Shown: piece by piece, positions 7,332-57,800 of the stretch
Numbering within the stretch: the stretch's first letter is position 1
Layout: each line of letters begins with the position of its first letter
Position numbers and translations under genes: made by a program
The notes under the pieces: generated by a model
Told to the model about the DNA's origin: nothing
Seen by the model: only the letters and a program-made list of their open reading frames with translations
The model's database searches: none
Source: a virus
Virus record (IMG/VR): IMGVR_UViG_3300044971_004534
DNA: 64,000 bases
Strand: one strand, 5' to 3'

Positions 7332-8415
7332 TCATGTAGACTATCATTGTTTTTTGGCTCCTACTGGATATACTCAGGCTGCTATAGATAACATAAAATC
7401 TTTAGAGAAAGTCGGTATCAATGTATCACTTAAATGTGTGCATGGAAAAATGGTTGGTACAGGTTTCTCTAAAGAAGAAATTTATTGGTTGACAGAACTA
7501 TTAAAAAAACAAAATTATGCAGATTCTCCACAGTTATTGCACGCAATACCCCCACGTTGGAAAAGTATAAAATTAAAAAATAACAGAATAGCTTTATTCG
7601 TTTTTGAAAATTATGCTATGCCAAAAATGTGGCTTGATGATTTGAAAAAATGTAAAGCTGTTGTTGTTCCATCTAAATTTAATTACGATTCACTTGTTGC
7701 TAGTGGTCTCACTAATGTGCATCTTGTTCATCATTCTGTCGATTCAAGTATATGGAACTATGAAATGGTGACTCCAAGAAACGATGCCGCTGAATCTATC
7801 AAAATTATTACAATAGGAACGTGGCGTGAAAGAAAAAATTGGAAAAATATGCTTTTGGCCATTTCGTCTTTAGCGACATCTCATCCTAATTTAGTTTGGA
7901 CCTTGAAGGTTGACAAGACCGCAAGTGCATCCACTGATGTTAAAAAGTGGTTAAATGAAATTAATAAAATTAATTTATTTAATAAAAATATTATTATAGA
8001 TGGTCGTATATTGGACGAATACAGCATGGCTAGACTTGTGTGTGGAAATGACATACTATTAAGTGCTTCTTATGGGGAGGGTTTTGGTCTTCCAGCTTTG
8101 CAGGCATGTATGGCAGGTTTAGCAGTAGTTTGTCCGAATTATGGAGGTTATTGTGAGTTTTTTAATGAAAATTGTTATGTAGAGGTAAAGTCCAAGGGTC
8201 TTGCTAAAAGACTCGGCAAAATGGACGGTTTACCTCAATTTGATAATTTAGTATGGCCTTTATATGACAAGGATTCCATACTTGATGCCTTGTATTTATG
8301 TATAGGTAATTTGTCCAATCTTAAGGAATCTGCTCGTAAAGTGTCTAACGAATATTCTATAAAATTTAGTCACAACAATATTGGGCAATCTTTTTTAAAT
8401 GTTTTGAAAAAATAA
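7264..8415 (+). CDS. Glycosyltransferase, GT-B fold, group 1 (GT4-like)
   Basis: The segment LLSASYGEGFGLPALQACMAGLAVVCPNYGGYCEFF (nt ~8059-8165) matches the Glycos_transf_1 EX7E region (S..EGFGL..lEAma.G.PVv....GG..E), with the second E replaced by Q. The start is uncertain. The first ATG (7264) overlaps the upstream gene by 68 nt, and an in-frame ATG at 7288 is an alternative. Confidence 0.8.
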   Translation: MDNSVLSIMQENLEKTVSSSVHDHVDYHCFLAPTGYTQAAIDNIKSLEKVGINVSLKCVHGKMVGTGFSKEEIYWLTELLKKQNYADSPQLLHAIPPRWKSIKLKNNRIALFVFENYAMPKMWLDDLKKCKAVVVPSKFNYDSLVASGLTNVHLVHHSVDSSIWNYEMVTPRNDAAESIKIITIGTWRERKNWKNMLLAISSLATSHPNLVWTLKVDKTASASTDVKKWLNEINKINLFNKNIIIDGRILDEYSMARLVCGNDILLSASYGEGFGLPALQACMAGLAVVCPNYGGYCEFFNENCYVEVKSKGLAKRLGKMDGLPQFDNLVWPLYDKDSILDALYLCIGNLSNLKESARKVSNEYSIKFSHNNIGQSFLNVLKK

Positions 8416-43137: not shown

Positions 43138-46100
43138 ATGCCTATAAAAGGAATCTCTAAATATTCAGTTTCTTTACAATTTTCCGAAGTTGGTGGAGAT
43201 CCACGTCCAGGTTCAGTTGTTTCCTATATGGACGAGTCTGGTCACGAACATCATTTTGTTGTCACTTTTTATGCAGCGGGTATTAAGTCATTCGGCATAA
43301 AACCCATATCTGGAATTGGTAAAATAAATCCTGGAATATTGCCTGGTTCTTATCTGAGATCTTTAGATAAAAGTTTTTATATAAAAGTTGGCAATAATTC
43401 TGTTACGCTTTCAGATGGATCAAAAATACACCAACTTGCTGAGGTAACAGATGTCAGAGAATCTTTTATTTCAAATCGTCATAGTTTAATTATTGATGAC
43501 GCTAGAGGTATAAGGTGGAACCAGGCCTTTATGGATGGCTCAGACTTTGCCTACTCTGCATGTGATTTAAGTTTTTTGAGTGTGGTTTTTCCATATGAGA
43601 AAGAAGTAATCAGTGGGATATCTAATCATAGACCTAGTCCAGTAATTGCTTTAAGCAAGCAGTTTGGCATTATGCAAAGTAGCGATGTAAAACATTATAA
43701 AAATTATCCTGTATTATTTTTAGATAGAAACGCAAACGATTTTTATAAAGTTCAAGTTTCTGAATTTGTAAATCTTGGTGATTTTGCAGTCAATAATCTT
43801 TCTTACGCTGTAAAAGATGAATCATTTTTGCGTGAATTGCAAGATTATACTTTGTGTGTTTTTGCTAGCAATGACTATTTAAATAATAAAAATGTATTTG
43901 CAAGCTTTGCAGCTAATATTGGCGCTTTTAATTCTAAAGACGTAGTAAATGATTTACTTTCTTTAAATACTATATTATCTTGTGGTTTAGTAAGAGCCAA
44001 AACCTTAGCTAATGGAAGTGGTTATGAGTTTATAAAAAATGTAAATTCCATAGACAACACTATATCTAATGGATGTTTTGATGGAGACTATATAAATGAA
44101 TTTATTCCAACAGATGATTTGTCTTTATTGTTTTTAAAATACGACGGCAAATATTATTGTGTTGGAAACTTTACCTATGAAAACACTGAATACGTATCTG
44201 GTTGCAATATGATTAATGGCAGATATGTTTCAGAAGGTCGAAATTCATTTGGAGAATTCTCTAAATCACTCATTGACAGTGAAAATTATTGCTCAATCAA
44301 TAAAGTAAAAATGTTTTTTGACCAAAAGTTTTTTGATGTTGTAAATGCAATTGTTGCTCTTTATGGGGTAGAGCAATTTGTTCATGAGCCAATAGGTATT
44401 GTTAGCAAGACAATAGACGGCAATGACATCAATAGGGACTATCAGTCGTATGACCCTGTTGTATGCTTGCATAACTATATTGTTGGAGACACTGTGCCAT
44501 CTTACCTAGATGGAAAGTATAGGCTAAACGATCTGTGTGACAACTATGTTCCTGGAAGTGCATTTTTAGATCGTGACATTAGACCTTTAACAAAAAATAT
44601 CAACTCAAAAGGTTTAGCAGAAAAAAGTACTGGGGTAGCTTTTAGGCCTAGCTATGCATACAAGAAAAATCAAAATAAATCTTTTTCTATTGCTGTATCT
44701 GGTTTTTCTGATTTGCTAATACCTTTTAAAAATACAATTAAAGACATTTTAGTAGATTATAATTTTACTTCATTAGAATCTGTTGACTTGGGTCTTAAGA
44801 TTGTTGGGGATATTGAAAGTTCTCAAATTAAAAATTTATATATTTCTGGAGTTTCTTGCATAGAAGATAATAGCGTATTATCTGGTTCTGATGGCGTGCT
44901 TAAGTACATGAGAAAAGACGGCTCTGTCAGTAATGTTGTTCGCCATAATGATGCTTTGCTGTTATTAAGTTTATCTTTACAATTTTTATCTTTTTTAAAT
45001 AATAACAATTACTCAAAGAACATGTCCTCAAGGCCAAGTTTAGTATTTGAGTTTGGTAAAAGCGGTAGAAGTAAGGCTGTAAAGCTTGCGTTTGCTTTAT
45101 ATTGCAATAATAAAAATATATATCAACTCAATGAAAATGATAATATTTACTATGTCCATAGTCATGATAGGGATTTGGCAATTATTGAAATTAAAAGACT
45201 TATAAAAAGTTTAAGAAATTTTTATGGATCATTTTCCAATTCTGTTTATCAAGATCTTTTAAAGTTAATTAATTTTTATGATATGAAATATAAAAATTCA
45301 GCGATCTCTTCTATGAAAGATAAGATTGTAGATGCCGCTCATTTGCTTACAAAATTTGATTTTTACGTCAAGGGCCTTGGAGATCCTTTAGTAGATGTTT
45401 TTGGAATCTCTGAAAATTCAAGTGGTAAAGTGAATATTGAAAAAATATCTGGACTGTCATTAAACAACAAAGATCTTAAAAATTATATTCCATCTAATGT
45501 CAGTAAGCGCGTGTCAGGATATTCTGTTAGTAAATCTATGTCTCATGTTAGCATTTCTCCTATTTGGTCTGGTGCTGTGCTTTTTTCTGGCACTATAAGC
45601 AGCCCATATTCACCATCAGGTCAATATGCAGTTTATGATGATGTCAATAACGCTTTAGAGTCTATTATTTTAAGATGGATAAGCGGAATAGACTCTTTGA
45701 AAAATGAATGTGAAGGCTACATAATAGAATCAAAAGATGATGTTGGCATTGTTGATGAGAACGAAATAAGTGCACGTAATTTTATTTTAGTATCTTCCTT
45801 AAAAAACAAATCCGATGTATTGTTAAAAGACAATTTTAAAATAGGTATTTCTTATGCTTGCATCACTGATGTAGAATTCAGGGGTAAGAGTACGGTTCAT
45901 TTTAATAATGGTTATATTTTGCATAACAGAAGGATATTTAGCGCTATTGTTAAGCCTTCTATAGACGCTGGTGCTAGGGTAATTTTGCAAGAGCAAAACG
46001 TTGATCAATTAATTATAGATTATTTTTCTAACATTGATAGCGCTATTAATGGATCTGCAAGTAAAAAATCAGAAGATGCTTTATGTTTTTTTGAAAATGT

Positions 46101-46887
46101 ATATAATCCAGATTATGTTGAAAGAACTGCAATAACAGATATAGGCGGACAAGAAGTGGCTGTTTTTGAAGGAGTAAAGTTTAGCTTTTTTAGTCAAAAT
46201 GCTTTTGCAAATTATGATACTTACAAGGGAGAATATTATTTTGATTCTCGTATTGCTTACAAAGAATCTTACGCACCACAGGGTGCTGACATCGTAGATT
46301 TAAATGTTGACTTAGACAGGCTTAATGACAGAAAAAGATCTTTGTATGTTGCTCAAAATTTAATATCGGAACAAATATCTTCAGTTATAGATCAAATATC
46401 TTCTTATGAAATTACTCAAAACGTTAATAAAAGTTTACTTATATATGGATTAAGATCTTCAGCATTAAATGCGCCTAAAAGATTGACTGCAAATCTTTTT
46501 GGTCATAACTTTTTTAACTTTGTTATGGTTAAATTGGGTGAAGAAGTTCAAGACTCTTATTTTACTCACAATACTTTCCTGTCTCCATATGCTGGCCTTA
46601 AAGCAAATAGGATTCACGCGTTTACGACAGACGACAATTTTGTTATGAAAAAGATCTTTGATAGATCTTCAAGTGTCAAAGATTGTTACGTTGAAAGGTC
46701 TATTCTTGCTGATTGGGGTAAATTAAAGAACTTGTATCCAATTCCGCCCAATGAATATGCTACAGCTGATGGCATAAATATTAATAAGGGCGAAGGCTCT
46801 AATAATAATGATGACGATATAATATATAGATTTAAAATAAGTAATTTGCCTAATATAAAAAGTTACACAATTAATGGTATAATTTAA
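43138..46887 (+). CDS. Large hypothetical structural protein (1,249 aa), ORFan
   Basis: Uninterrupted 1,249-codon ORF, 7 nt after the upstream stop. Its stop overlaps the next ATG (TAATG). I can recognise no motif, signal peptide or TM segment. Confidence 0.85.
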   Translation: MPIKGISKYSVSLQFSEVGGDPRPGSVVSYMDESGHEHHFVVTFYAAGIKSFGIKPISGIGKINPGILPGSYLRSLDKSFYIKVGNNSVTLSDGSKIHQLAEVTDVRESFISNRHSLIIDDARGIRWNQAFMDGSDFAYSACDLSFLSVVFPYEKEVISGISNHRPSPVIALSKQFGIMQSSDVKHYKNYPVLFLDRNANDFYKVQVSEFVNLGDFAVNNLSYAVKDESFLRELQDYTLCVFASNDYLNNKNVFASFAANIGAFNSKDVVNDLLSLNTILSCGLVRAKTLANGSGYEFIKNVNSIDNTISNGCFDGDYINEFIPTDDLSLLFLKYDGKYYCVGNFTYENTEYVSGCNMINGRYVSEGRNSFGEFSKSLIDSENYCSINKVKMFFDQKFFDVVNAIVALYGVEQFVHEPIGIVSKTIDGNDINRDYQSYDPVVCLHNYIVGDTVPSYLDGKYRLNDLCDNYVPGSAFLDRDIRPLTKNINSKGLAEKSTGVAFRPSYAYKKNQNKSFSIAVSGFSDLLIPFKNTIKDILVDYNFTSLESVDLGLKIVGDIESSQIKNLYISGVSCIEDNSVLSGSDGVLKYMRKDGSVSNVVRHNDALLLLSLSLQFLSFLNNNNYSKNMSSRPSLVFEFGKSGRSKAVKLAFALYCNNKNIYQLNENDNIYYVHSHDRDLAIIEIKRLIKSLRNFYGSFSNSVYQDLLKLINFYDMKYKNSAISSMKDKIVDAAHLLTKFDFYVKGLGDPLVDVFGISENSSGKVNIEKISGLSLNNKDLKNYIPSNVSKRVSGYSVSKSMSHVSISPIWSGAVLFSGTISSPYSPSGQYAVYDDVNNALESIILRWISGIDSLKNECEGYIIESKDDVGIVDENEISARNFILVSSLKNKSDVLLKDNFKIGISYACITDVEFRGKSTVHFNNGYILHNRRIFSAIVKPSIDAGARVILQEQNVDQLIIDYFSNIDSAINGSASKKSEDALCFFENVYNPDYVERTAITDIGGQEVAVFEGVKFSFFSQNAFANYDTYKGEYYFDSRIAYKESYAPQGADIVDLNVDLDRLNDRKRSLYVAQNLISEQISSVIDQISSYEITQNVNKSLLIYGLRSSALNAPKRLTANLFGHNFFNFVMVKLGEEVQDSYFTHNTFLSPYAGLKANRIHAFTTDDNFVMKKIFDRSSSVKDCYVERSILADWGKLKNLYPIPPNEYATADGININKGEGSNNNDDDIIYRFKISNLPNIKSYTINGII

Positions 46888-49800
46888 TGGCACAATATAT
46901 TAATACATCACTTATTGCTGACAATGAATTTTGGGACGCATCTACTTGGAGAAGAATGTGTAGAGAGTTGGCTGGACTTCGTGGATTGGCTCCTGCTGTA
47001 CATTTTAGGAACACTGTTAACGACAGTGATTCTTCTCAAAACGTTGATGACGATAGAATTTTTCATACTCATACACACCAAAAAATTTACGTTTGGGGCG
47101 TTGAGATGTGTTCTGGAGGTTATGACACTTTAAAAATATACTGGAGAGCCCCCAGTAATCCGCCAGATGCTCAGTGGACTTTAGATAGTGGGTGGACTCT
47201 TATAAAGGGAGCTGGAGCTAAGACTAATGGAGGAAGCGGTACTGGTGCTGGTCAAACAAATCCGAACAATACCGCCAATATTCAGCCTGGGCCCAGCCCC
47301 TTTGGAAATATAGGAACTTCTGAAGCTACATTGGGTGGCACTGGTACTGGTTTACATTTCCCTCGCAGCAATCCGCTTCCTGACGGTTCTACTAATAACG
47401 TAGAATACTTTTATAATCAGTGGCTTTTAGAGATGAAACATAGTGGTGCGATTTATACTATGGCTGGTCCATCTCCAATCTATGATCAGGGTCAGGCTTA
47501 TACAACTCTTACTTCAAATTTTTTAAGAACTTTTTTACTAATGAAAGAAGGGTATTGGAAATTTGTATTAGATGAAACGGCGTCTCCTTGGTATAATCAA
47601 TCTTTAGGTTTGCCAACTACAAATTGGGATTCTGGATTAAAAACAGATTGGTTTAACTCAAAGGGTCGTTTATCTCCTGTTGATTATGCAACAAATCCTA
47701 CTCTTTATCAATCTTTGCCTGGTCATGTAGATGCTTCTAAAAATAGTCAAGTAGCTTCTACGGGAGTGAGATATAGGTCAAGGTTTACTAGATCTCTTAA
47801 TGTAAGAGCTTTTTTTCCTGAAAAAGATTTAGTTACTGGTTCTTTAATGACAAAAGTTTTTAAGACAATGACTCCTGGCGTAGCTACTAATGATTACCAG
47901 GTAGATGCTCCATATACAAAAGTTGTAGGTTACGGCGCTGAATGGGGTAGTTCTTTGCAGACTGCATCCAGTGCTCAATGGACAAAGTTTGTTAAAACAC
48001 GAAATTCTTCTGGGCAAGATGGAACTTCAGGATTCCCTCACACTACAGAAATTACATCAAATGAAAGATTTAGTAATGTAGAATGGAGGTATACTCCATT
48101 ATTTAAAAAGAGAGTTATTAATCGAAGACACTTGTTCATTGATGGAGTTACCATAAATGGTGGCGACAAGTTTGTAGACGGATATTACAGCGTTCAGGGG
48201 CTATGGGAGGAAGACCCAATTTACGTCAGGCCAGATGCGCCTGCAGCTCCTGGTACTTCTTTTCCATCTGGAGATGGGCAAGTCAAAGGATGGTTTGTTG
48301 ACTTTAGGGGTAGTGTATTTAGAAATTGCACTTTTAAAAATATTTTTATTGGCGGCAGGGACGAATCTTGTTGGTCTGGAGTATCTTTTGTAAACTGCAA
48401 ATTTATTAATTGTGCAGTAAATACAAATGGAGATTCTATTCTTTTTCATGAATGTTCTTTCATTGGTGGTTATAAAAATACCGCCATGTTTACGCCGACT
48501 ACATTTCATTCAAGTGCATTTATTAGTTGTCAGTTCTTAAATAATGATAGAGTGTTTATATTCTCTTCTGCCAAGGGGCCAGTTAGCGATAATCTTTGGT
48601 GGCGTAACATTTTTGATTATCAAGTTAATCAAAATGGTGGCGGCAGTGAAATATTTTGTACAGAATTTCCAAGCTTTATGAGATTCAGTGCTCAAACTTA
48701 TGCGTTTGATGCAACAGGTACTAGCATAACTTCCCATATAGTGCAGCAGCATGAATTCTCAAGAAATTTATTTATTAATAATCGTTTGCATAGTGGTCTT
48801 GGTGGTATAGTTTCATCATATGAGACTTTTAGTAGAGCTAATCTTTTCTATATGAATACCTTTAATGATACCATTAAGATATACGCGCATACTCCTGCTG
48901 GACTTAGCGAAGACAAGTGCCTGTATGAGTCTTGGGCGCATAACTTCATGCATAAGCTTTCTATTTCTCTAGATGGAAAAACTTATCATCATAGATTTAT
49001 ATGCAACGCTGTTTCTGAGCCTCAGTTTAGTAGTTTCAAGAGTATAGATAGTCACTATAGTCCCTATTCTCTTGGGACAGGAGTATGCGTCAATGCAGGT
49101 GGAGTTGAGGGCGACTCAAGCGCTCCATCTGGCCAATGGTATTGCGTTAATACAACTGCTATGGCTAATAAGGCTATAAGTAACGTCTTTTTAAACTGGG
49201 GCAATTACTTTATGGACAACCACTTGGGTCCATGTTCTATATTTAACGGATTTCATCATGTATATGATCCAAATTTTGATATTAATAAAAGTATAGATAA
49301 TTATTGGAGTCAAAATAATTTGTGGAAATACGTAAATGTTGCTCATAGAAATAAATTTAATTTGCCTTTTCCTGGTAAAAAATATGGTTGGCATGATGGT
49401 CTTATTGGTCGCTTAAATCCTGATGGAACCGAATGGTCTCCTCAGCATCACAACTCAAGTGGAGCAAGAAGTTTTTCTCCTTTGCCTTTAGAATGGAAGC
49501 TAGAGCATTACGACAATGGATGGAAAGTTTGGGATACATCTTACGGTGGACCTTCTGGTGGTTTTTATTGTTCACAAGATTCTTCTCATATTGCATCAAG
49601 AAATGAATGCCGTTCTATTTATGTTAAAAATTTAAGCAGTAATGTTTGGGAGAAGAAGAATAGCGGTGTTTTGTACAGTAATGAGGCTGTTTTGTCTTCT
49701 AGACAAGGTTGGGGTCAACAGATATTCAGAAATGATGTTATAACTGATGGTCTAATATTGGCTTTGAATGCGAGTGTCGTTAGCTCTTTCAACTATGGAA

Positions 49801-50543
49801 GTGGTAGCTCTTTTGATATAGGAAATAATACACAATGGAAAAATATGATGAGCAATGGATTCCATGGTTCTATTCAAAATTCTCCAAGATTTGCTGGTAC
49901 AACTTTGACTGCTCCTCCGGCAAATTGCACAAATACCAATAATGACGGCAGCGGAGGTTCTATTAGGTTTAATTGTACAGATACCGATGATTTTGTAAAC
50001 ATTTCTAATATCAATTCTTCTGGAGCTACAGTCTCAAATACTTTTAGTGCAAAAACTGATGGTTTTATCACTATTCAAACCTGGGTTCGTTTAAGAAGTG
50101 TTGCAAATCAAATGTTTTTTGGTAAAGGAACAAACAGTACTTCTGGCAATTGGGACGGCTATTCTGTAGGTACTGGTTCTTCTGGTGGGCTTTTGATAGT
50201 TACAAATGGTGCTTCAGTTTATAAAGAAAATAGTACTTCTGGATCTGGACTCATACTATCTGCAGATGTTTGGTATTTTATTACTGCTGTCATTAAGATT
50301 GGTGGCACAAGTGGAGACGTTAAGGGCTACGTTAATAATGTAAGATATATTAATGGTTCTCACGGCTCAGAAACATCCTATGATGACACTGTTAATCCGC
50401 TCGTGTTGGCTAAAGGCTTTAAAAATAGTACTTCTAATTTTCCATTTACTGGATGGATGGGAGAGTTTTATTTTTACAATCGTGAATTGACTGCTTCCGA
50501 GGTAGAAATAAATTATCAAGCTACTAGAGGAAGATTCTTATAA
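46887..50543 (+). CDS. Paralog 1 of a triplicated beta-helix fibre family (1,218 aa), with a Gly-rich insert and a C-terminal LamG lectin domain
   Basis: Shares three signatures with the next two genes. The N-terminal one is LAGLRGLAPAVHF...IYVWGVEMCSGGYDTLKIYW. The mid motif is EGYWKFVLDET. The Cys-ladder beta-helix rungs read VDFRGSVFRNCTFKNIFIGG...FVNCKFINC...FHECSFIGG...FISCQFLNN. The C-terminal LamG module lies at 49748-50540. Confidence 0.88.
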   Translation: MAQYINTSLIADNEFWDASTWRRMCRELAGLRGLAPAVHFRNTVNDSDSSQNVDDDRIFHTHTHQKIYVWGVEMCSGGYDTLKIYWRAPSNPPDAQWTLDSGWTLIKGAGAKTNGGSGTGAGQTNPNNTANIQPGPSPFGNIGTSEATLGGTGTGLHFPRSNPLPDGSTNNVEYFYNQWLLEMKHSGAIYTMAGPSPIYDQGQAYTTLTSNFLRTFLLMKEGYWKFVLDETASPWYNQSLGLPTTNWDSGLKTDWFNSKGRLSPVDYATNPTLYQSLPGHVDASKNSQVASTGVRYRSRFTRSLNVRAFFPEKDLVTGSLMTKVFKTMTPGVATNDYQVDAPYTKVVGYGAEWGSSLQTASSAQWTKFVKTRNSSGQDGTSGFPHTTEITSNERFSNVEWRYTPLFKKRVINRRHLFIDGVTINGGDKFVDGYYSVQGLWEEDPIYVRPDAPAAPGTSFPSGDGQVKGWFVDFRGSVFRNCTFKNIFIGGRDESCWSGVSFVNCKFINCAVNTNGDSILFHECSFIGGYKNTAMFTPTTFHSSAFISCQFLNNDRVFIFSSAKGPVSDNLWWRNIFDYQVNQNGGGSEIFCTEFPSFMRFSAQTYAFDATGTSITSHIVQQHEFSRNLFINNRLHSGLGGIVSSYETFSRANLFYMNTFNDTIKIYAHTPAGLSEDKCLYESWAHNFMHKLSISLDGKTYHHRFICNAVSEPQFSSFKSIDSHYSPYSLGTGVCVNAGGVEGDSSAPSGQWYCVNTTAMANKAISNVFLNWGNYFMDNHLGPCSIFNGFHHVYDPNFDINKSIDNYWSQNNLWKYVNVAHRNKFNLPFPGKKYGWHDGLIGRLNPDGTEWSPQHHNSSGARSFSPLPLEWKLEHYDNGWKVWDTSYGGPSGGFYCSQDSSHIASRNECRSIYVKNLSSNVWEKKNSGVLYSNEAVLSSRQGWGQQIFRNDVITDGLILALNASVVSSFNYGSGSSFDIGNNTQWKNMMSNGFHGSIQNSPRFAGTTLTAPPANCTNTNNDGSGGSIRFNCTDTDDFVNISNINSSGATVSNTFSAKTDGFITIQTWVRLRSVANQMFFGKGTNSTSGNWDGYSVGTGSSGGLLIVTNGASVYKENSTSGSGLILSADVWYFITAVIKIGGTSGDVKGYVNNVRYINGSHGSETSYDDTVNPLVLAKGFKNSTSNFPFTGWMGEFYFYNRELTASEVEINYQATRGRFL
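49748..50540 (+). other. C-terminal LamG / concanavalin-A-like lectin domain of paralog 1
   Basis: The sequence reads GLILALNAS...FHGSIQNSPRF...FTIQTWVRLRSVANQMFFGKG...WDGYSVGTGSSGGLLIVTNG...ADVWYFITAVIKIGGTSGDVKGYVNNV...FTGWMGEFYFYNRELTASEVEINYQATRGRF. The terminal h.hY.R.LtasEh..NY motif is characteristic of Laminin_G_3 modules. Confidence 0.75.
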
Positions 50544-50549
50544 AGAAGG
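50544..50549 (+). promoter_or_regulatory. Shine-Dalgarno-like AGAAGG for the 50556 gene
   Basis: The sequence is TAA AGAAGG TTTATT ATG, inside a 12-nt intergenic gap. Confidence 0.5.
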
Positions 50550-50555
50550 TTTATT

Positions 50556-53138
50556 ATGTTTCAAGCTTATGATTCTCAATCTGCATTACGCGAAATGGTC
50601 GGCATAAGAGGCGCTGCACCTTCTATTCGTTTTAAAGAGTCTGTTCCTGGGCTCTCTGTTGAAAAAGAGGTCTTACATGTCCCAGCTAATGAGAGTGTTT
50701 ATGTTTGGGGAGTTGAGCTATTTAGTGGTGGTTTTGATTGTTTAAAAGTAACACATTATCCAGATGGGCAGCCGCCTGTGCTTATAAAAAATGGTGGCAA
50801 TGAAATATCTTTATTGAATAACAGGAAACAAATTAGTTACTTTTCAAACGGTGTAAAAATTGTTGAAACATTACCTTTTGATGATTTTTGGAACGAACCA
50901 TTTTTAGTTAATAAAAACGATGAAAAAATAGTAAAGAGTAATTTTTTTAGGTGTTTTATATTTGAGTCTGAGGGTTATTATAAATTTGAGATTGATGAGA
51001 CTTTTAATCCTAAATATTTAAGTCCTGATTTTTTACCTATCGATTATGCATCTGATCAGATCTATAGCTCTGGCAGTGGCAATAGGCAGGGAAACAGGGC
51101 TGCTACTTGGTCTGTCACAAAGTCAAAAAGCTCGACACCAGAAGATTACGCAAGATCTAACAGTTCATTAAAAAGAGAAATTTATTTAAGAGTTATATCT
51201 AGAGATAAAGACATAGTAAATGGCAGCACTATATCTAGAAATGTTTTCAATCTTTCTCCAGGTTTAGTGAAGTACGAAAATTTGCCTCCATGGACGGGTA
51301 CTAATCGTGATGCAAACGGAAATCCTCTCAGAGTTAATACGTTGGGTCCGTGGTATGTAGCTGGCAATAATGCTTACTACAATGTTGACGCCTATTATAA
51401 TAGCAACACTACCACTTCAGGTGCGCCTACTATAGACTTAAATCACGGCTGGCTGGGAAGGAACGCTGTATTTGCTCCGCAGTACACAATACAGGGCTTG
51501 ATGAATAATCTACTAGAAAATTCTTATAGACCATATTCAGACTATTTTAGGCAAGGCTGCCGGTATTACAATATGAGAAATGGTGTTATTGAAAACGTTA
51601 ATTTTTATGGGTCAGATTTTTCAGTAGTTCATCAATTTTTTATATTACCATATAGCTATTATAACGACTCTTTAAATGTTGCTTCTTCTGATGCAAATGT
51701 ATTTTTAAATACTACTAGATATTTACCATCAGGATCATCTCTGACTTCAGTTAGTATAGCTTCTGGCTCTCCTGCGATATTAACGTCAGCCAATCATGGC
51801 TTGACGGCTGGCACTCCCATTATGTTTAGTGGTGGCTCTTTGCCAGTTGGTATAAGTGCAAATACAATTTATTTTGTCACAAGTTCAAATTTAACGGCTA
51901 CTACTTTTACAATTAGTGCAACTTCTGGTGGTGCTCCAATAAATACTACTGGAGCTACGGCATCATCTTTTTATTACAGAGATTTTGTAAATATAGATTC
52001 AATTGATAATCTTGTAAGCTATTTAAACAATGGAGCAACTTTTCCAATATCGAGTCAAAACGCTTTGTCCACTCCTGATCAATATCAAAATAATGTTTTA
52101 GTAGATATGAGAGGTGCTGTTTTTAAGAATTGTACTTTTGATAAATATCAAATGAATTTAACACATAAATCTATGATGCTAGATGGTGCAGTATTTGAAA
52201 ATTGCACTTTTATTGGTTGTGGATCTGGCTATAACAATAGTGGTGGAATATTATACAAAAATTGTCATTTTGAAGAAATTAGTACGCAGGGTGATTTGAG
52301 TTTAACATGGGAGGCCGGTGGTTCTTGCTGCGTCATGGGATGTACTCAAAAATATACTGAAAGAGGCACTTTATTTTCTTTTCATAAAGGTGGCTTTAAT
52401 GATAGTATTTGGATAAGGCATTCATATCACGGCATAGACAGGTTTCAGATAGCAAATGAGCATTGGGTAATGGAATCTTGTTGTTGTGGAGATTGTGCTA
52501 CTTCAAATCGTTTTGACAATAATATGTTTATAATGAACAGAGGCTCTAAGGGGCCTTGCAGTATAGGTCTCTATAGAGCAAATTGTAAACTAAATTTAAT
52601 CGCATTTAATTCTTTTGAAGTTTATTCTGGAGGATCTAATTACTTTTTAGTCAATGATCCGGGTCGAGTTTTTGACTTAGAATGCAATGTTTTTCTGTAT
52701 AATGATTCAGTTGGGTGCGGTATTAGTATGCAATATTGGTCCCATAATAATAGGTTTATTAATTGTACATTTAGAAAAATTCAAAATTTTGCCAACCCAT
52801 GGGGTGGATATAATTGGGTAAGTCAGGATGAAGTGGATGGAAGAAATTTTTACACTTCTTATGGTTTTCTCAATTTACTTGGTACAGGTTCAGATGCTCC
52901 AACCAGTAATCTTATAATCAATTGTTCAATGATCGACTATCAAGATGATACCTATACTTGGGGCGCAGGTTATAGTTCAGATAATCTTTTTAGAATTAGT
53001 AATATTAATCCAGCCGTAAATGATTCTGAAATACTGTCAGGTAAAAATATTATTTATAATTTAAGAAGAATAATAGAAAACAGTGCAGATAGGACTCATC
53101 CTATAAGCAGTAGTAATCCTAATATAAGTAATTTGTAA
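50556..53138 (+). CDS. Paralog 2 of the triplicated beta-helix fibre family (860 aa), with an inserted small beta-domain
   Basis: AGAAGG (50544-50549) lies 6 nt upstream of the ATG. The N-terminal signature is MVGIRGAAPSIRF...VYVWGVELFSGGFDCLKV, followed by EGYYKFEIDET. The rungs read VDMRGAVFKNCTFDKY...FENCTFIGC...YKNCHFEE. An extra module SANHGLTAGTPIMFSGGSLPVGISANTIYFV...TFTISATSGGAPI lies at ~51750-51960. Confidence 0.88.
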   Translation: MFQAYDSQSALREMVGIRGAAPSIRFKESVPGLSVEKEVLHVPANESVYVWGVELFSGGFDCLKVTHYPDGQPPVLIKNGGNEISLLNNRKQISYFSNGVKIVETLPFDDFWNEPFLVNKNDEKIVKSNFFRCFIFESEGYYKFEIDETFNPKYLSPDFLPIDYASDQIYSSGSGNRQGNRAATWSVTKSKSSTPEDYARSNSSLKREIYLRVISRDKDIVNGSTISRNVFNLSPGLVKYENLPPWTGTNRDANGNPLRVNTLGPWYVAGNNAYYNVDAYYNSNTTTSGAPTIDLNHGWLGRNAVFAPQYTIQGLMNNLLENSYRPYSDYFRQGCRYYNMRNGVIENVNFYGSDFSVVHQFFILPYSYYNDSLNVASSDANVFLNTTRYLPSGSSLTSVSIASGSPAILTSANHGLTAGTPIMFSGGSLPVGISANTIYFVTSSNLTATTFTISATSGGAPINTTGATASSFYYRDFVNIDSIDNLVSYLNNGATFPISSQNALSTPDQYQNNVLVDMRGAVFKNCTFDKYQMNLTHKSMMLDGAVFENCTFIGCGSGYNNSGGILYKNCHFEEISTQGDLSLTWEAGGSCCVMGCTQKYTERGTLFSFHKGGFNDSIWIRHSYHGIDRFQIANEHWVMESCCCGDCATSNRFDNNMFIMNRGSKGPCSIGLYRANCKLNLIAFNSFEVYSGGSNYFLVNDPGRVFDLECNVFLYNDSVGCGISMQYWSHNNRFINCTFRKIQNFANPWGGYNWVSQDEVDGRNFYTSYGFLNLLGTGSDAPTSNLIINCSMIDYQDDTYTWGAGYSSDNLFRISNINPAVNDSEILSGKNIIYNLRRIIENSADRTHPISSSNPNISNL
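51750..51960 (+). other. Inserted small beta-domain (HGL-x-x-G ... LP-x-G-h ... YFV ... TF-x-h-S-x-T-x-GG-x-x-I) present only in paralog 2
   Basis: The sequence is SVSIASGSPAILTSANHGLTAGTPIMFSGGSLPVGISANTIYFVTSSNLTATTFTISATSGGAPINTTG. I have seen this pattern recurrently in phage tail and structural proteins but cannot name the family. Local G+C is higher than background (spot counts 42%, 50%, 32% and 42% for the four lines 51721-51960). Confidence 0.5.
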
Positions 53139-53139
53139 T

Positions 53140-54837
53140 ATGGGATACACAGATCTTAGTTTTTATCTTGGCTTACGTAGATTGGCTGGTATTAGATCAG
53201 CTGCTCCTGCGGTAATTGTTATTGATCAAAATTTAGGACAAGAAGTTTATGTGGTAAGGAAGAATGAAATTATCACATTATGGGGTTGTGAAATGATGCC
53301 TCTGCAATCAGATTGCATTCGTATAAGTTACAAATCCACTGCATCTTCTTCTTGGACTGTTTTAAAAGACTATTTAGCTCAGACATCATTGGGAATATTT
53401 GGAAGTAATGTTTCAACAGATCCTAATTTATTTTTATCTGGTTCTCCATCTCTGGCGGATAATTATGAGTTGAATGATCCTGTCTATAAGGACGGTTTTA
53501 AAATTAGTGGAGTGACTTATTGTAGAGAACATGATAGTCCTTTTAAAACAGTTGGGTATTCTGGATCATGGATATATAGGCAAGAACAGCAGATTCATGC
53601 CAAAGTTTCATACAACAATTTTGGACGAGGTTTTAGATTTTTTCAAGACGGATATTATAAGTTTGATTATGATGAATCAAAATCAGCATTGTACAAAAAA
53701 ACAACAGGTTCAGCTAATCCAGTAGATCCTGATGCTGCTGATTATAATACATTCAAATACAATGGTTCTGTGCCGTGGACCCCAGTAGATAGAAGCCTGT
53801 ATGAGCATGGCGATGTTTTATTAAGATCCATTATAATTAGATGTGCAACTAATTTTGATGCAGTTGCAAATGCAAGTTATAGCGATAGCGACTTGTCTTC
53901 TTTAAATCCAACAGTAAGTTCTTTGCCTATCAACACTAGTCAAAACATATGCAGAAAAATAGGGTTGCAAGTAAAGTCAAAATCTTATGATGTTTCTGGA
54001 GGTTCAAAGCCAACGTGTTCTGCTAATGGTTTTTTGATAGACATTTCATCTGCTGGAGTTGCATCGACTACTATTAATCAATTTGATACAAATATTTCGT
54101 TTACTAGTGGTACTATAGTTAAAAATATTAGAAATAGGACTTTTGACACTGTCAATTTTGTGGGTCCTGGCGATTTTGTTCAGCATATATCTCCAATTCC
54201 TGGTTCAGACTATTGTGCTCAGCCAGTTGATATGCGTAATTCTAGATTTTATAATTGCACATTTAAAAATGTTATTTTTGGATCTCCTGGAAAATCTCAA
54301 TTGATATTAGATGGTTCGATATTTTTTCAATGTAACTTTGAAAGTTGTAAGCTTTATTTAAATCCTAAAAACATATTATTTAAGAACTGTACTGTTAATA
54401 ATAGTTCAGTGTCTGAAGGATTTTTAATTATGAATGGATCTTTTGGTAATATGTTTACAGATCTTATTGTAAAAGACACTAACAGGCCATTTGTTTTTGT
54501 TAATAATGAAAATAGCAATAATAGTAATTTTATTATAATGAGTAATTTTAGTCAAGGTGGAGATGTGGAGCTAGGTAGCTGTCCATTTGTAAATGTAGTT
54601 CCTGGTTCTAATTCTGCTCATTCTTCTTCATTTTCTGGCAATATTATTATGCGTAATTATATTGATGATGGATCTGGAGATCCTGTCAGAATAGAAAAAA
54701 CTTCAGCTCATGGTAATTTTTTTGGTGGAAATTACATGATTTCCCATGGAAATCTATCTTTAGCAGAAGACTTGAAACAGAAGCAAAAAAATAAGGATTT
54801 TATTAGATATCCCAGTATTAAGCCCTATACTTCGTAA
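53140..54837 (+). CDS. Paralog 3 of the triplicated beta-helix fibre family (565 aa), minimal version
   Basis: The ATG lies 1 nt after the upstream stop. The N-terminal signature is LAGIRSAAPAVIV...ITLWGCEMMPLQSDCIRISY, followed by DGYYKFDYDES. The rungs read VDMRNSRFYNCTFKNVIFGS...FFQCNFESC...FKNCTVNN. Confidence 0.88.
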   Translation: MGYTDLSFYLGLRRLAGIRSAAPAVIVIDQNLGQEVYVVRKNEIITLWGCEMMPLQSDCIRISYKSTASSSWTVLKDYLAQTSLGIFGSNVSTDPNLFLSGSPSLADNYELNDPVYKDGFKISGVTYCREHDSPFKTVGYSGSWIYRQEQQIHAKVSYNNFGRGFRFFQDGYYKFDYDESKSALYKKTTGSANPVDPDAADYNTFKYNGSVPWTPVDRSLYEHGDVLLRSIIIRCATNFDAVANASYSDSDLSSLNPTVSSLPINTSQNICRKIGLQVKSKSYDVSGGSKPTCSANGFLIDISSAGVASTTINQFDTNISFTSGTIVKNIRNRTFDTVNFVGPGDFVQHISPIPGSDYCAQPVDMRNSRFYNCTFKNVIFGSPGKSQLILDGSIFFQCNFESCKLYLNPKNILFKNCTVNNSSVSEGFLIMNGSFGNMFTDLIVKDTNRPFVFVNNENSNNSNFIIMSNFSQGGDVELGSCPFVNVVPGSNSAHSSSFSGNIIMRNYIDDGSGDPVRIEKTSAHGNFFGGNYMISHGNLSLAEDLKQKQKNKDFIRYPSIKPYTS

Positions 54838-54894: not shown

Positions 54895-57800
54895 ATGACC
54901 TGGCCAGTTATTTCTTCAAGCAATCCTTTTGCTCAAACCATAAATCTCAGTTCTGATTCTGATTTACCACCTATAGCTAGATGGTCTAGCGTGCCCATGC
55001 AATGGGTTCACGATGGAGAATCGATAAGAGCATCTGTGGTAGCGTATCACTCTGCTGGTATACAAAGAGTTGATTTTATTTGCGACGGCGGAGAGTACGA
55101 GTCTGGTGGTCATATTATTAGCGTTATTAATCCTGTAGCGGACGCAGTTTCAAAGCAGGATGAGTATGCCTGTAGTATTGATATAGATAGTACTTGGCCT
55201 GAAGGAATTCATACAATCAGGGCTATTGTTTATTCTAATGCTGGCACTCAAAGAGTATTGCAGGGAACTTGGTTGCCAAAGTTTTCGTCCTCTTCAGACG
55301 AATATTCTTATGCATCGAATGGAGAGGTTGATTTTACTTTTATAGTTAATCGTGGATCTTATGACGGCATTACAGTTTATGTAGATTCTGTAAATGGCAA
55401 TGACGCTAATTCGGGTACTTTTGGCTCACCATTAAAAAATCTATGGAGCGCAATAGTTAAGATTCATGCAAGCCATACAGAAGGCTCTATTAGAGAAGAC
55501 GTTATTGTCTGTAAGGCTGGAGAGTATAGAATAAGCCCACTTGTCCAAAGCGATTATCCCGGCGGAGTGATTTCAGATGCACCATTGGGGTCTGGAAGAA
55601 TTGGTTGGTTGAAAATAAAGTCGATGGATGGTGTGAATAAAAAAGATGTGGTTATCACCAACCGTTCCATTAATTTTGGCAGTGTTGGATCTCCTTCAAG
55701 TTATACAGTACTTTCTAATTCTTTAGAATCTCGTTTTACTAATTTTGAAAATTTAACTTTAGAAAACTTTTATGATAGCAGTACAAATGTATCTGGAGAA
55801 AAGAATTTTATTATTAAAACTGGCGCGAATGTAGATAGCAGAGGAGTGTGGTTGAATGGCTGCAGTATTAGGGGAAAAGTAGGGGTATCTGTTGATACGT
55901 TAGTGTCTAGTTTAAATAGTCAGTCAAATATTTCTTTTAAAGCTTATCCTGGCATATCAGAGAATATAGTTGGGTTTGCTACTAATTGTTCAGTCAATGG
56001 CTTGTATAGAGGTTTTAAAGATTTTGCTTTAGTGAAGCAGTGTGGAATAGGCAGTGTCGTAGAGTACGCAGCAAAAAACTGTGCTGCTTTGATGTCGTGC
56101 AACATATCCAGTGTCGGGAATGTGGGAGCTGTATCTGGATCTGCAGTGATCAGCTTTACTGAAGATTCAGGAATAAAGAAAAATATTATTATATCTAAAA
56201 ATAATATTAATAAATCTGCTATTGCTCATTTTAGTTTTGATGCTAATGGAGCAACATTCAGTCCTAATGATTTTTACGAGAGTATAGCAATAGTCTCAAA
56301 TTATTTTACTAGATTTTCTGGTGGTCCAGGTAAGTCTTATATTTTTAATGGGATCAAGCAAGCATTTATTGTTCACAATAGTATGCTTGACAGTCTATCC
56401 TTTCATGATACACCAAATGGAGCGTGGACTAACCCAGCCAATGTGAGCAGCATATATTGCAGATACAATTTATTAAATGGAATTATAGTTGATTCAACAT
56501 CTGGCTCAACAGCTTCATTAGGTGCTGGTTTATCAAAGTTAAATACTTCTTTAACAAATTCAAATTCTGATATATCTGCAAATATATTTTTATTACCATC
56601 GGTTTCTTCTAACCCGCTTTTCTTATCTCTAATAGTAGCTAATCAGAACACGCAGGTAAATACAAGTTCACACAAAGTTGTCAAAAATTATTCTGAAGGA
56701 AATCTTGCTCTTTTGTGTGTTTCTCTTAATGGGGTTTCTAATCCAGCAAAAGGTTTAGAAAGTTCATCTATTTTGAATACTGACATTTTGGGTAATTCAT
56801 ATGAGAATTCTAAGGGAGATTGTGGTGCGAGACAGGATTGCACTGAAGAGGTTTCTCCAGATATTATAGAGACAACTGAAATTAAAACAGTTCCTATATC
56901 TGGATTTCCAATACTTGGAGCTAATCAAGTAGACTTCTTTCAGTCTTCTACTTTTGCTTTACAGTATCAGTTTAGCGCTTTTGATATGGTTCTTTGGTAT
57001 GATCAAAACGTAAGAAATTTTCCTGCTTCTGCTACAGAGACGGGATCACCTTACTACCCAGGTGGCTCTTATCAAGAGTGTCAGATTTGCACTTTGGGCC
57101 CAGGATTGTGCACAAGTACAGTTGATGGTGGCGCAAATTGGTTTAAGAGATGGAGTCTGCCTTCGAGTTTGACATTTGAGCTTTCTACTCTTCCTGCTTG
57201 TGACAGTGGGAATACTTCTAAGATAGCTGGTACTCGTGCTGCGTTTAGAGAGTATTTCGATGTTGATGGTATGGTGCGCGGAATGTCAAGGTATAACCCA
57301 GACTGGGCATTAGTATTTCTGCATGGTGGGTCAGAGCCATTGTGGTGGGATACTCAGATACCTGGAATGAGCCAATGGGCTTTGCTTAAAGATGATGGAG
57401 AAGAAAGCACTTCTATGGGTCTTGGAATGGACGTAGTGCAGGCCTACAAAGATGCATCAAATAAGTATAAGCAAAAATTGATGGCTTACTTTTTTCCATT
57501 TGCTTGGATTGAGTTAGATTCTTCTGTTTATCCTTATGCATTAGATATTTTTGGAAATCATGTTACTGAGGGCAGACATGGACCAACTATAAGCTATAGA
57601 TCTTCTTTTAATGATGCATTTGTTGACCTGCTATGCCAGATACATGTTGAGATGGCTCGCAAGTGTTTTGATATAGAAACAGGCTATGGATTCGCTGGGT
57701 GTATGTGGGATGCAGCTCCGATGTTGTATACACTTGACTTTAGTCCTGACGCAATTGCTGCATCTGGAATAGATGCTACTAAAGATTTTCCTTGGCCACT

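What the first reader, a model, noticed from the sequence alone, without database searches (positions are those of the whole stretch)
46887..54837. Tandem triplication of a novel beta-helix fibre gene family with modular C-terminal and internal variation
Three adjacent genes (1,218, 860 and 565 aa) share three elements. The first is an N-terminal signature, L.G(I/L)R(G/S)(A/L)AP(A/S)h.....hY(V/L)WG.E......D.h+h. The second is a (E/D)GY(Y/W)KF..DE motif. The third is a Cys-ladder beta-helix core, VD(F/M)R.s.F.NCTFKN ... F.(N/Q)C.F..C. They differ by add-ons. Paralog 1 has a Gly-rich insert and a C-terminal LamG lectin, paralog 2 has an inserted HGL-type beta-domain, and paralog 3 is minimal. 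This looks like a cassette of alternative receptor-binding proteins on a common attachment domain, which is a plausible host-range diversification mechanism. I cannot assign the family to any named one.
Basis: seen in the sequence. Interest (0 to 1): 0.7.

Follow-up and report, generated by a model that had tools for sequence, protein, structure and literature searches.

The report
Fixed trio of paralogous phage fibre proteins
Three neighbouring genes of an uncultured giant bacteriophage are ancient copies of one unnamed beta-solenoid protein that always occur together in the same order, most likely as the shared base of a composite host-binding fibre; they are not a recent, swappable set of alternatives.

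Summary
ORFs 46887-50543 (T1, 1218 aa), 50556-53138 (T2, 860 aa) and 53140-54837 (T3, 565 aa) are significant paralogs (pairwise BLASTP E 2e-19 to 2e-7). They share an N-terminal beta-sandwich and a Cys-laddered right-handed beta-solenoid. The add-ons are real: Laminin_G_3 on T1, and a 77-aa 'HGL' domain in T2 that is unique to this genome.

The interpretation needs revising. The triplication is old and fixed. Every related contig carries one T1, one T2 and one T3 in that order, with no gain or loss, and the three diverge no faster than their neighbours.

The trio travels as a block with the conserved C-terminal ~130 aa of the upstream ~1250-aa protein. In one lineage the block sits between gp15-like and TerL genes of a T4-like (Kyanoviridae-like) myophage.

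T3 is the proximal module of the downstream giant protein. In other lineages T3 is fused in frame to different pieces of that giant.

No Pfam, PHROG, NCBIfam, PDB or cultured-phage relative exists, and 1.84 billion representatives hold only about 40 clusters.

Best reading: co-assembling structural fibre or spike subunits that diversify by adding domains at their tips. This is a new family of a known kind, of moderate interest. Virion location and assembly mode are inferred, not shown.

The parts
43138..46887 (+). Upstream partner gene (1249 aa). It overlaps the T1 start by 1 nt and always precedes the trio.
   Evidence: A ~1245-1298-aa gene precedes T1 in every relative. Only its C-terminal module is conserved across both phage lineages.
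46468..46860 (+). Conserved C-terminal ~130-aa module of the upstream protein (aa ~1111-1241). It is the only part shared with the 1266-aa Ig-repeat protein that precedes the trio in the T4-like lineage.
   Evidence: hhalign of A4 against A5 gives probability 95% and E 2.5e-8. tblastn gives E 2.4e-5.
46887..50543 (+). T1 paralog, 1218 aa.
   Evidence: ORF. Paralogy. Orthologs P0001-P0016.
46887..47921 (+). T1 family-specific N-terminal beta-sandwich domain (aa 1-345), including the hypervariable Gly-rich loop at aa 101-205 (47187-47501).
   Evidence: Alignments. Conservation profile.
48297..49376 (+). T1 Cys-laddered right-handed beta-solenoid (aa ~471-830).
   Evidence: BLASTP block shared with T2 and T3. 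Coil period of 24 aa. Sub-threshold Pentapeptide_4 hit.
50019..50504 (+). T1 C-terminal Laminin_G_3 / ConA-like lectin-type domain. It is present only in the closest relatives.
   Evidence: Pfam PF13385 at E 1.7e-11 and 44.9 bits, above the 27.6-bit cutoff. The domain is absent from the ~900-aa T1 orthologs P0005-P0010.
50556..53138 (+). T2 paralog, 860 aa.
   Evidence: ORF. Paralogy. Orthologs P0023-P0026.
51735..51965 (+). Roughly 77-aa 'HGL' domain inserted in the loop just before the T2 solenoid. It is unique to this genome and is a mobile domain also found, often in several copies, in unrelated proteins.
   Evidence: Absent from all T2 orthologs. Recurs in P0027-P0036, which include a TadG/VWA protein and a DUF2793 protein. 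No Pfam family matches.
52101..52655 (+). T2 Cys-laddered beta-solenoid core (aa ~516-700).
53140..54837 (+). T3 paralog, 565 aa. It consists of an N-terminal beta-sandwich (aa 12-248, 53173-53883) and a solenoid (aa 363-540, 54226-54759).
   Evidence: ORF. AlphaFold2 models with pTM 0.83 and, for the N-domain model, pLDDT 80-95. Orthologs P0017-P0022.
54895..64000 (+). Giant downstream gene (more than 3035 aa in the window, running off its end; 4341-5607 aa in relatives). It is the distal partner of T3.
   Evidence: Open frame. In other lineages T3 is fused in frame to homologs of giant aa 3-662, aa 668-2091 or aa 2467-2971.

Best explanation
T1, T2 and T3 are an ancient, fixed set of three paralogous structural proteins of an uncultured jumbo tailed phage. 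They are most likely fibre or spike subunits.

Each protein has a family-specific N-terminal beta-sandwich packed rigidly onto a Cys-laddered right-handed beta-solenoid of about 24 aa per coil.

The three are inherited as one block with the conserved C-terminal ~130 aa of the upstream ~1250-aa protein. The genes are tightly coupled (spacing -1, +12 and +1 nt). I infer that the products assemble into one composite, branched host-adhesion apparatus. In that apparatus the conserved N-terminal domain and solenoid form the virion-proximal scaffold, and different distal modules are displayed on it:
- a LamG-type lectin domain on T1;
- an inserted HGL domain on T2;
- the 4,000-5,600-aa multidomain giant protein on T3, covalently in some lineages and as a separate polypeptide here.

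Host-range change would then come from adding or swapping tip domains on a constant three-part chassis, not from gain or loss of paralogs.

Shown: paralogy, fold class, the add-on domains, the invariant trio and its order, the T3-giant fusions, and the position inside a T4-type neck/packaging/tail gene block in one lineage.

Inferred: virion location, co-assembly, and a glycan-binding or host-adhesion role.
For: - Paralogy is significant, and there are exactly three members in the window.
- T1-T2-T3 are present once each and in the same order in all informative loci, L001-L022. Each ortholog scores best against its own type.
- The trio diverges at a rate similar to its neighbours. The first ~100 aa and the Cys-ladder are the most conserved parts, and the loops and C-termini the least.
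- T3 is fused in frame to the giant homolog in L009: aa 562 onward aligns to giant aa 3 onward at 38% identity, E 2e-104.
- There are further independent fusions to other pieces of the giant: P0041, P0046, P0047, P0050, L014, L020 and L022.
- In the 118-kb UViG the gene order is gp13-like, gp14-like, gp15-like, a 1266-aa Ig-repeat protein, T1, T2, T3, TerL, sheath, tube, portal, protease. Its TerL is 56% identical to those of Kyanoviridae.
- Only the block [upstream C-terminal module]-T1-T2-T3-[~500-aa giant module] is shared between the two phage backbones.
- The AlphaFold2 model is all-beta, with an N-terminal sandwich and a solenoid (pTM 0.83). Foldseek matches are to pentapeptide-repeat proteins and to tailspike or pectate-lyase helices.
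- The T1 C-terminus is a Laminin_G_3 domain.
- Neighbouring genes carry fn3, Ig, dockerin-like, RCC1, J-like and tailspike-like signatures.
- The family occurs only on viral or metagenomic contigs. None was found in 185,579 species genomes, and IMG/VR classes the contigs as viral.
Against: - There is no direct evidence that any of the three is in the virion.
- No hallmark tail or baseplate gene was identified next to the trio in the window's own lineage. Walking about 50 kb downstream in its 224-kb relative found only more giant genes and then replication genes.
- The structural matches are weak and generic (best E ~1e-4, TM at most 0.27).
- The N-terminal domain has no significant structural relative, so its 'anchor' role is inferred only from position and conservation.
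- Oligomeric state and the partners in the assembly were not tested.
Confidence: 0.6

Rival explanations
1. The three genes are interchangeable, alternative receptor-binding proteins on a common attachment domain, forming a cassette that diversifies host range through duplication, loss and replacement of paralogs.
For: The proteins share an N-terminal module and differ in their distal add-ons. Known phages such as CBA120 encode tandem tailspikes that broaden host range (abstract of PMC8825819, listed).
Against: Copy number and order are invariant in every relative. The triplication predates the divergence of the lineages, because each ortholog scores best against its own type. The solenoid bodies are conserved like the neighbouring genes rather than swapped. 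T3 has no distal domain of its own here, but carries the giant protein in other lineages.
Confidence: 0.12
2. An obligate heterotrimer. One chain each of T1, T2 and T3 pack side by side, through their homologous N-terminal domains and solenoids, into a single pseudo-threefold spike that displays three different distal modules.
For: The three genes co-occur strictly 1:1:1, in a fixed order, with tight translational coupling, and they show equal conservation. Residues invariant across all three paralogs could form a common interface.
Against: There is no test of oligomeric state. Known phage spikes and fibres are almost always homotrimers. The paralogs are only ~22-25% identical, with different loop lengths in the N-terminal domain. 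T3 can be fused to proteins thousands of residues long, which suggests an independent fibre.
Confidence: 0.15
3. The proteins are primarily enzymes, that is, virion-borne polysaccharide depolymerases of the beta-helix tailspike type, rather than passive scaffolds.
For: The fold class is a right-handed beta-solenoid with weak Foldseek matches to tailspikes, pectate lyases, alginate epimerases and K1 lyase. Charged residues are invariant (R19, E51, D58, R163, E179, D240, D364, R366).
Against: There are no hits to Beta_helix, Pectate_lyase or glycoside hydrolase families. The best sequence and fold matches for the Cys-ladder are non-enzymatic pentapeptide-repeat proteins. The invariant residues are spread over both domains rather than lining an identified groove.
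Confidence: 0.1
4. The proteins are non-structural pentapeptide-repeat-like proteins, for example DNA mimics or host-takeover factors in the manner of Qnr, MfpA or AlbG.
For: There are sub-threshold Pentapeptide_4 hits. The weak tail of the exhaustive profile search consists of genuine pentapeptide-repeat proteins. Foldseek hits include HetL, AlbG and MfpA.
Against: Scores of 15-18 bits are far below the 38-bit cutoff. The coil period is 24-25 aa, not 20. The proteins are 565-1218 aa and carry a LamG domain. T3 is fused to giant tailspike-like proteins. The genes lie between neck or tail genes and TerL in the T4-like lineage.
Confidence: 0.03

Closest known systems
Phage T4 gp10-gp11-gp12 (peripheral baseplate proteins and the short tail fibre)
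   Same: Three sequential, co-transcribed genes whose products derive from one primordial fold and work together in one peripheral tail assembly (PMC3004832). In both cases the triplication is old and fixed, and the three are parts of a set, not alternatives.
   Different: No sequence or structural similarity was detected: no gp10, gp11 or gp12 chain is among the listed Foldseek PDB hits (top 50 of each search) for either model. The fold here is a beta-sandwich plus a beta-solenoid, not the T4 helix-plus-sheet motif. In the T4-like relative the trio lies between the gp15-like gene and TerL, not in the baseplate gene cluster.
Branched multi-tailspike complexes of Ackermannviridae and related phages (for example CBA120 TSP1-4)
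   Same: Tandem genes encode beta-helix spikes with N-terminal assembly or anchor modules and different distal specificities, assembled into one branched complex (abstract of PMC8825819, listed).
   Different: As I recall (not re-checked here), in those phages the receptor-binding bodies are swapped between close relatives. Here the solenoid bodies are conserved orthologs, and only the tips and loops vary. The N-terminal domain shows no detectable relation to the gp10-like anchor domains.
Pentapeptide-repeat proteins (Pfam Pentapeptide and Pentapeptide_4; HetL, AlbG, MfpA)
   Same: The closest match in sequence and fold to the Cys-ladder: short strands, local 5-residue spacing of inward-pointing Cys and Phe, and a right-handed solenoid.
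   Different: The scores are below the Pfam threshold. The coils are ~24-25 aa with one hF.NC.F..C motif each, rather than four pentapeptides per 20-aa coil. The protein context is much larger and multidomain.
Right-handed parallel beta-helix tailspikes and depolymerases (HK620, Det7 and LKA1 tailspikes; the pectate lyase superfamily)
   Same: The same fold class and a similar coil length. Phage-borne and modular, with N-terminal anchor logic.
   Different: No Pfam Beta_helix or Pectate_lyase hit. TM-scores are at most 0.27. No catalytic signature was identified.
Accessory adhesin-like genes in the gp15-to-TerL slot of Kyanoviridae (for example the 677-aa F5/8 type C domain protein of Methylophilales phage Melnitz)
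   Same: The same plastic genomic slot in T4-like aquatic myophages, holding a large protein with a carbohydrate-binding-type domain.
   Different: The proteins are unrelated, and Melnitz has a single gene rather than a four-gene block. No T-family member exists in any deposited phage genome.

Membership tests
Pentapeptide repeat proteins (Pfam PF13599 / PF00805) | Score above the Pfam gathering threshold | tested here: not met
   T1 scores 15.2 bits and T3 17.6 bits against a cutoff of 38. T2 has no hit.
Pentapeptide repeat proteins (Pfam PF13599 / PF00805) | Tandem pentapeptides giving 20-residue coils (four faces of five residues) | tested here: not met
   Hydrophobic autocorrelation peaks at lags of 24-25 in all three paralogs. 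There is one hF.NC.F..C motif per coil.
Pectate-lyase-type right-handed beta-helix tailspikes (Pfam Beta_helix PF13229 / Pectate_lyase_3) | Profile match to a beta-helix family | tested here: not met
   No such Pfam or NCBIfam hit at E <= 0.1 or 0.01 respectively.
Pectate-lyase-type right-handed beta-helix tailspikes (Pfam Beta_helix PF13229 / Pectate_lyase_3) | Structural superposition on a solved tailspike or lyase helix | tested here: inconclusive
   Foldseek E-values are 1e-3 to 1e-2 and TM-scores 0.16-0.27 against the Dettilon, HK620 and LKA1 tailspikes and against pectate lyases. These hits are mixed with pentapeptide-repeat proteins.
T4 gp10/gp11/gp12-type triplicated baseplate proteins | Three sequential paralogous genes encoding parts of one assembly | tested here: inconclusive
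   Sequential paralogs and invariant co-occurrence are shown. Membership of a single assembly is inferred, not shown.
T4 gp10/gp11/gp12-type triplicated baseplate proteins | The common gp10/11/12 fold (an alpha-helix plus a three-stranded sheet, and so on) | tested here: not met
   The models are all-beta, a sandwich plus a solenoid. No gp10, gp11 or gp12 chain appears among the listed Foldseek PDB hits (top 50 of each search). The fold description is taken from PMC3004832.
Laminin_G_3 / ConA-like lectin domain (T1 C-terminus only) | Score above the Pfam gathering threshold | tested here: met
   PF13385 at 44.9 bits against a cutoff of 27.6, E 1.7e-11, profile positions 5-150 of 151. The orthologs P0002 and P0004 score similarly.
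Virion structural protein of a tailed phage | Physical presence in virions | not testable with these tools
   There is only contextual evidence: the position between gp15-like and TerL genes, fusion to tailspike-like giant proteins, and IMG/VR viral contigs.
Trimeric fibre or spike | Homotrimeric (or heterotrimeric) assembly | not tested
   Only single-chain prediction was available.

The most novel reading that the evidence does not exclude
T1, T2 and T3 form an obligate heterotrimeric, pseudo-threefold beta-solenoid spike. A gene triplication has frozen a former homotrimer into three specialised chains, so that one spike displays three different distal devices at once: a LamG lectin, an HGL domain and a fibre of more than 4,000 aa. 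The four-gene block (upstream C-terminal module plus T1-T2-T3) moves between unrelated myophage backbones as a self-contained adhesion organelle.
Probability: 0.15. Interest if true: 0.7.

Novelty: new variant of a known kind. Interest (0 to 1): 0.45.

Why it matters
Receptor-binding machinery is the least understood and most engineerable part of phages, and uncultured aquatic and jumbo phages are almost entirely unannotated in this region.

This family gives a recognisable marker: an N-terminal signature plus a Cys-ladder, always as a T1-T2-T3 trio. The marker identifies a conserved chassis on which very large and variable adhesion proteins are mounted.

The family also offers a second, sequence-visible example of the T4 gp10/11/12 principle, in which an ancient triplication produces a fixed multi-part assembly. 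In addition, it provides a natural series of gene fusion and fission events (T3 with and without pieces of the giant) that predicts which proteins contact each other.

If the heterotrimer reading were right, it would be an unusual departure from the homotrimer rule for phage spikes.

Tried and rejected
- DNA and protein searches of 50,697 deposited phage genomes with T1, T3, the whole locus and the T4-like lineage's T3 found no match.
- Pfam, PHROGs and NCBIfam scans of T1-T3 gave only sub-threshold Pentapeptide_4 hits, one unknown-function PHROG on the LamG tail, and a sub-threshold TafC hit.
- PDB sequence searches of T1, T2 and the shared giant module found nothing.
- Foldseek of the whole T3 model against PDB and BFVD gave only generic solenoid matches. 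Foldseek of the N-terminal domain alone gave only antibody-type Ig noise, with a best E of 0.037. I therefore rejected a gp10-like or other known anchor domain.
- I looked for a fourth family member or a shared N-terminal domain in the other giant ORFs of the window and found none.
- T4-type late promoter (TATAAATA), sigma-70 and terminator scans showed no enrichment.
- A scan of GTDB species genomes for host or prophage hints found no relative.
- I tried to show that the window's own lineage is T4-like by walking about 50 kb downstream in its 224-kb IMG/VR relative. No T4-type core gene was found. There were only further giant genes, then helicase, primase-helicase-like and SbcD-like genes whose best hits are in Bacillus phage G, a Bacillus siphovirus and SPO1-like (Bacillus/Staphylococcus) phages. 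I therefore do not claim that this lineage belongs to the Kyanoviridae.
- I considered translational readthrough joining T3 to the giant, because both are in the same frame. I rejected it because the 57-nt spacer holds several in-frame stops, and the spacer is 91-316 nt in relatives.
Full report
OBSERVATION

They are tightly packed. T1's ATG overlaps the stop of the upstream 1249-aa ORF by one base, T1 and T2 are 12 nt apart, and T2 and T3 are 1 nt apart.

Pairwise BLASTP finds two independent homologous blocks in every pair, the N-terminal region and the Cys-ladder:
- T1-T2: E 2e-19 and 1e-8.
- T1-T3: E 2e-10 and 3e-9.
- T2-T3: E 3e-9 and 2e-7.

- G17, R19, A22, P23, W48, G49, E51 and D58 (N-terminal signature);
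- R163, F165, G171, E179 and Y185 (EGYYKF..DE motif);
- N329 and R331;
- D364, R366, F370, C373, F375, C398 and C417 (Cys-ladder).

A family HMM hits only these three ORFs among all six-frame ORFs of the window; the next best E-value is 0.34.

ANATOMY

An AlphaFold2 model of T3, built with the 26-sequence family alignment, has mean pLDDT 74.9 and pTM 0.83. It is all-beta, with an N-terminal beta-sandwich of ~240 aa followed by a solenoid of short strands.

Modelled on its own, the N-terminal domain (aa 12-248) folds confidently, while aa 249-350 are disordered. That segment therefore belongs with the solenoid.

The solenoid has a coil period of 24-25 residues with one hF.NC.F..C motif per coil. 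It is a Cys-laddered right-handed beta-solenoid with only local pentapeptide-repeat character:
- Pfam Pentapeptide_4 scores 15-18 bits against a cutoff of 38.
- In an exhaustive HMMER search of 1.84 billion representative proteins, the hits beyond the family match only profile positions ~420-560. Of ten tail hits scanned against Pfam, three were genuine pentapeptide-repeat proteins, two gave sub-threshold Beta_helix hits and five had no family.
- Foldseek against PDB and BFVD gives only weak, generic solenoid matches, namely HetL, AlbG and MfpA mixed with tailspikes and pectate lyases (E 1e-4 to 1e-2, TM at most 0.27).

The N-terminal domain has no significant structural relative. The best E-value is 0.037, from antibody Ig noise.

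The add-ons:
- The T1 C-terminus is a bona fide Laminin_G_3 domain (44.9 bits against a 27.6-bit cutoff).
- The T2 'HGL' segment (aa ~394-470) is a clean insertion in the loop before the solenoid. It is absent from every ortholog, including the 60%-identical one. It recurs, sometimes in several copies, in unrelated proteins, including a TadG/VWA protein and a DUF2793 protein.
- The Gly-rich stretch of T1 is a hypervariable loop of the N-terminal domain.

HOW RARE IT IS, AND WHAT IT IS NOT

- No Pfam, PHROG or NCBIfam family matches.
- There is no PDB relative by sequence.
- There is no match in 50,697 deposited phage genomes by DNA or tblastn.
- There is no member in 185,579 species-representative bacterial and archaeal genomes.
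- The word-indexed search of 5.8 billion proteins returned 16 T1-type, 6 T3-type and 4 T2-type clusters, and none of those looked up carries a functional name.
- The exhaustive profile search found 42 clusters at E <= 1e-10.
- Contigs carrying the family reach 280-406 kb, and IMG/VR classes them as viral.

COMPARATIVE GENOMICS: THE KEY RESULT

Every related locus with enough sequence carries exactly one T1-type, one T2-type and one T3-type gene, in that order:
- close relatives L001 and L002;
- L011-L013, ~60-70% identical;
- L003-L008, ~40-50% identical;
- L009 and L010, ~33-40% identical;
- a second group, L014-L022, ~28-39% identical.

Each ortholog scores best against the HMM of its own type. 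The triplication is therefore older than all these lineages, and no gain or loss is seen.

Identity between orthologs is about the same as, or higher than, that of the neighbouring genes. Against L009, for example, T1 is 33%, T2 40% and T3 36% identical, while the upstream 1249-aa and 304-aa proteins are 26% and 24%.

Along each protein the first ~100 aa and the Cys-ladder are best conserved, and the loops and C-terminal ends least. This is the gradient expected for a fibre with a proximal anchor and a distal, variable end.

CONTEXT

In the second group, the 118-kb UViG IMGVR_UViG_3300002835_000043 has this gene order:
- head-tail adaptor (gp13-like);
- head closure (gp14-like);
- tail sheath stabiliser (gp15-like);
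- a 1266-aa Ig-repeat protein;
- T1, T2, T3;
- TerL, tail sheath, tail tube, portal, an unidentified gene, and prohead protease.

A small TerS-sized ORF lies between T3 and TerL in the related contig L022. This TerL is ~56% identical to those of Methylophilales phage Melnitz and T4-like cyanophages (Kyanoviridae). In Melnitz the gp15-to-TerL interval is a plastic slot that holds accessory genes, including a 677-aa F5/8-type-C domain protein.

The window's own lineage looks different. The trio is embedded in a run of giant same-strand ORFs:
- In the window these are 3288, 1708, 2807, 1848 and 1249 aa, plus the giant of more than 3035 aa.
- In the 224-kb relative the trio is followed by genes of 5596, 2587, 497 and 3968 aa.
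- These are followed by a helicase, a primase-helicase-like gene and an SbcD-like gene, whose best hits are in Bacillus phage G, a Bacillus siphovirus and SPO1-like (Bacillus/Staphylococcus) phages.
- No T4-type core gene lies within reach.

Between the two backbones the only detectable shared elements are these:
- T1, T2 and T3;
- the C-terminal ~130 aa of the protein upstream of T1 (hhalign probability 95%, E 2.5e-8);
- a ~500-aa module corresponding to giant aa 2467-2971.

The block therefore behaves as a unit.

T3 AND THE GIANT PROTEIN

In L009 the T3-type module (aa 16-555) is fused in frame to the homolog of the window's giant protein. Fusion residue 562 aligns to giant residue 3, at 38% identity over 675 aa and E 2e-104.

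Other members fuse T3 to other pieces of the giant:
- P0047 to giant aa 668-2091;
- L014, L020, L022, P0041 and P0046 to giant aa ~2470-2970.

In L015 and L017-L019, and in the window clade, T3 stands alone.

This series of fusions and fissions identifies T3 as the N-terminal, and by analogy with other fibres the virion-proximal, module of a long modular protein. Here the distal part is encoded separately, 57 nt downstream. Several in-frame stops lie in that spacer, so readthrough is unlikely.

MECHANISM (INFERRED)

The most economical reading is that T1, T2 and T3 are structural fibre or spike subunits forming a constant three-part chassis. The conserved N-terminal sandwich and solenoid would form the scaffold and attachment part, perhaps docking onto the conserved C-terminal module of the upstream protein. 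The distal modules (LamG lectin, HGL domain and the giant multidomain protein) would contact the host surface.

Diversification happens by accretion or exchange of tip and loop domains, not by turnover of paralogs. I put this reading at ~0.6.

Whether the three form separate homotrimers in a branched complex, like CBA120 TSP1-4 or T4 gp10/11/12, or one heterotrimer (~0.15), could not be tested. A depolymerase function (~0.1) and a non-structural pentapeptide-repeat-like role (~0.03) are less likely.

COMPARISON WITH KNOWN SYSTEMS

The best functional analogy is T4 gp10-gp11-gp12. These are three sequential genes on one polycistronic mRNA, derived from one primordial fold, all at the baseplate periphery (PMC3004832). 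The fold here is unrelated, however, and membership fails.

The multi-tailspike complexes of CBA120-like phages share the logic of tandem genes, N-terminal assembly modules and differing distal specificities (abstract of PMC8825819, listed). As I recall (not re-checked here), those phages swap whole receptor-binding bodies between close relatives, which is not seen here.

Membership in the pentapeptide-repeat and pectate-lyase-type beta-helix families was tested and was not met or was inconclusive. Only the LamG domain of T1 is a member of a named family.

VERDICT

This is a new, very rare and entirely uncharacterised family, but of a familiar kind: phage beta-solenoid fibre or spike proteins.

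The added points of interest are the frozen T1-T2-T3 trio, its movement as a block between unrelated phage backbones, and the T3-giant fusion series.

Interest is 0.45.

Noticed in passing
window 1-64000 (all + strand); L023, L105, L106: The whole window is a run of giant same-strand ORFs: at least 1148, 1221, 3288, 1708, 2807, 1848, 1249 and more than 3035 aa. In the 224-kb relative the run continues after the trio with 5596, 2587, 497 and 3968 aa. That makes roughly 100 kb of giant, almost entirely unannotated genes in one jumbo phage. The only recognisable pieces are RCC1 repeats, a dockerin-like motif, fn3, LamG and tailspike-like motifs.
   Followed up: partly
window 54895-64000; L009:14855-22609; P0041, P0046, P0047, P0050: The giant protein is itself a shuffled set of modules. 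Different lineages attach different subsets to T3 (aa 3-662, 668-2091 or 2467-2971). The ~500-aa module at aa 2467-2971 is the most widely shared, yet it has no Pfam or PDB match.
   Followed up: partly
window 7264-8415 (+): A 383-aa glycosyltransferase (phrog_2170, E 1e-26) lies inside the array of giant structural-looking genes and overlaps the preceding ORF by 68 nt. It may glycosylate virion proteins.
   Followed up: no
window 8417-18283 (+): A 3288-aa ORF carries RCC1 repeats (Pfam RCC1_2, E 5e-18), which form a beta-propeller, and a weak 'tail protein' PHROG hit.
   Followed up: no
window 19792-24918 (+), aa 36-92; L023 15540-16012: A dockerin type I-like calcium-binding motif (Pfam E 3.9e-7) sits at the N-terminus of the 1708-aa ORF. 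Similar motifs recur inside the 5596-aa giant of the relative. This suggests cohesin-dockerin-like docking among these proteins.
   Followed up: no
window 18283-19788 (+): A 501-aa ORF has a weak match to the lambda J-type central tail fibre family (phrog_31, E 9.5e-7, profile positions 886-1057). It is the only tail-tip-like signal in the window.
   Followed up: no
window 51735-51965 (T2 aa 394-470); P0027-P0036: The ~75-aa 'HGL' domain is an unannotated mobile domain. It also occurs in bacterial TadG/VWA pilus-assembly-type proteins and DUF2793 proteins, with up to six or more copies in one protein (P0027). It deserves a family definition of its own.
   Followed up: partly
window 24915-25985 (+): A 356-aa ORF has a sub-threshold Laminin_G_3 hit (E 0.0017). 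It would be a second LamG-like domain in the window besides the T1 C-terminus.
   Followed up: no
L011/L013 giant gene compared with window 54895: The giant protein of the 68%-identical relative has about 382 extra N-terminal residues that this window's giant lacks. The alignment to window giant residue 3 starts at L023 nt 2750, while the ORF starts at nt 1604.
   Followed up: no
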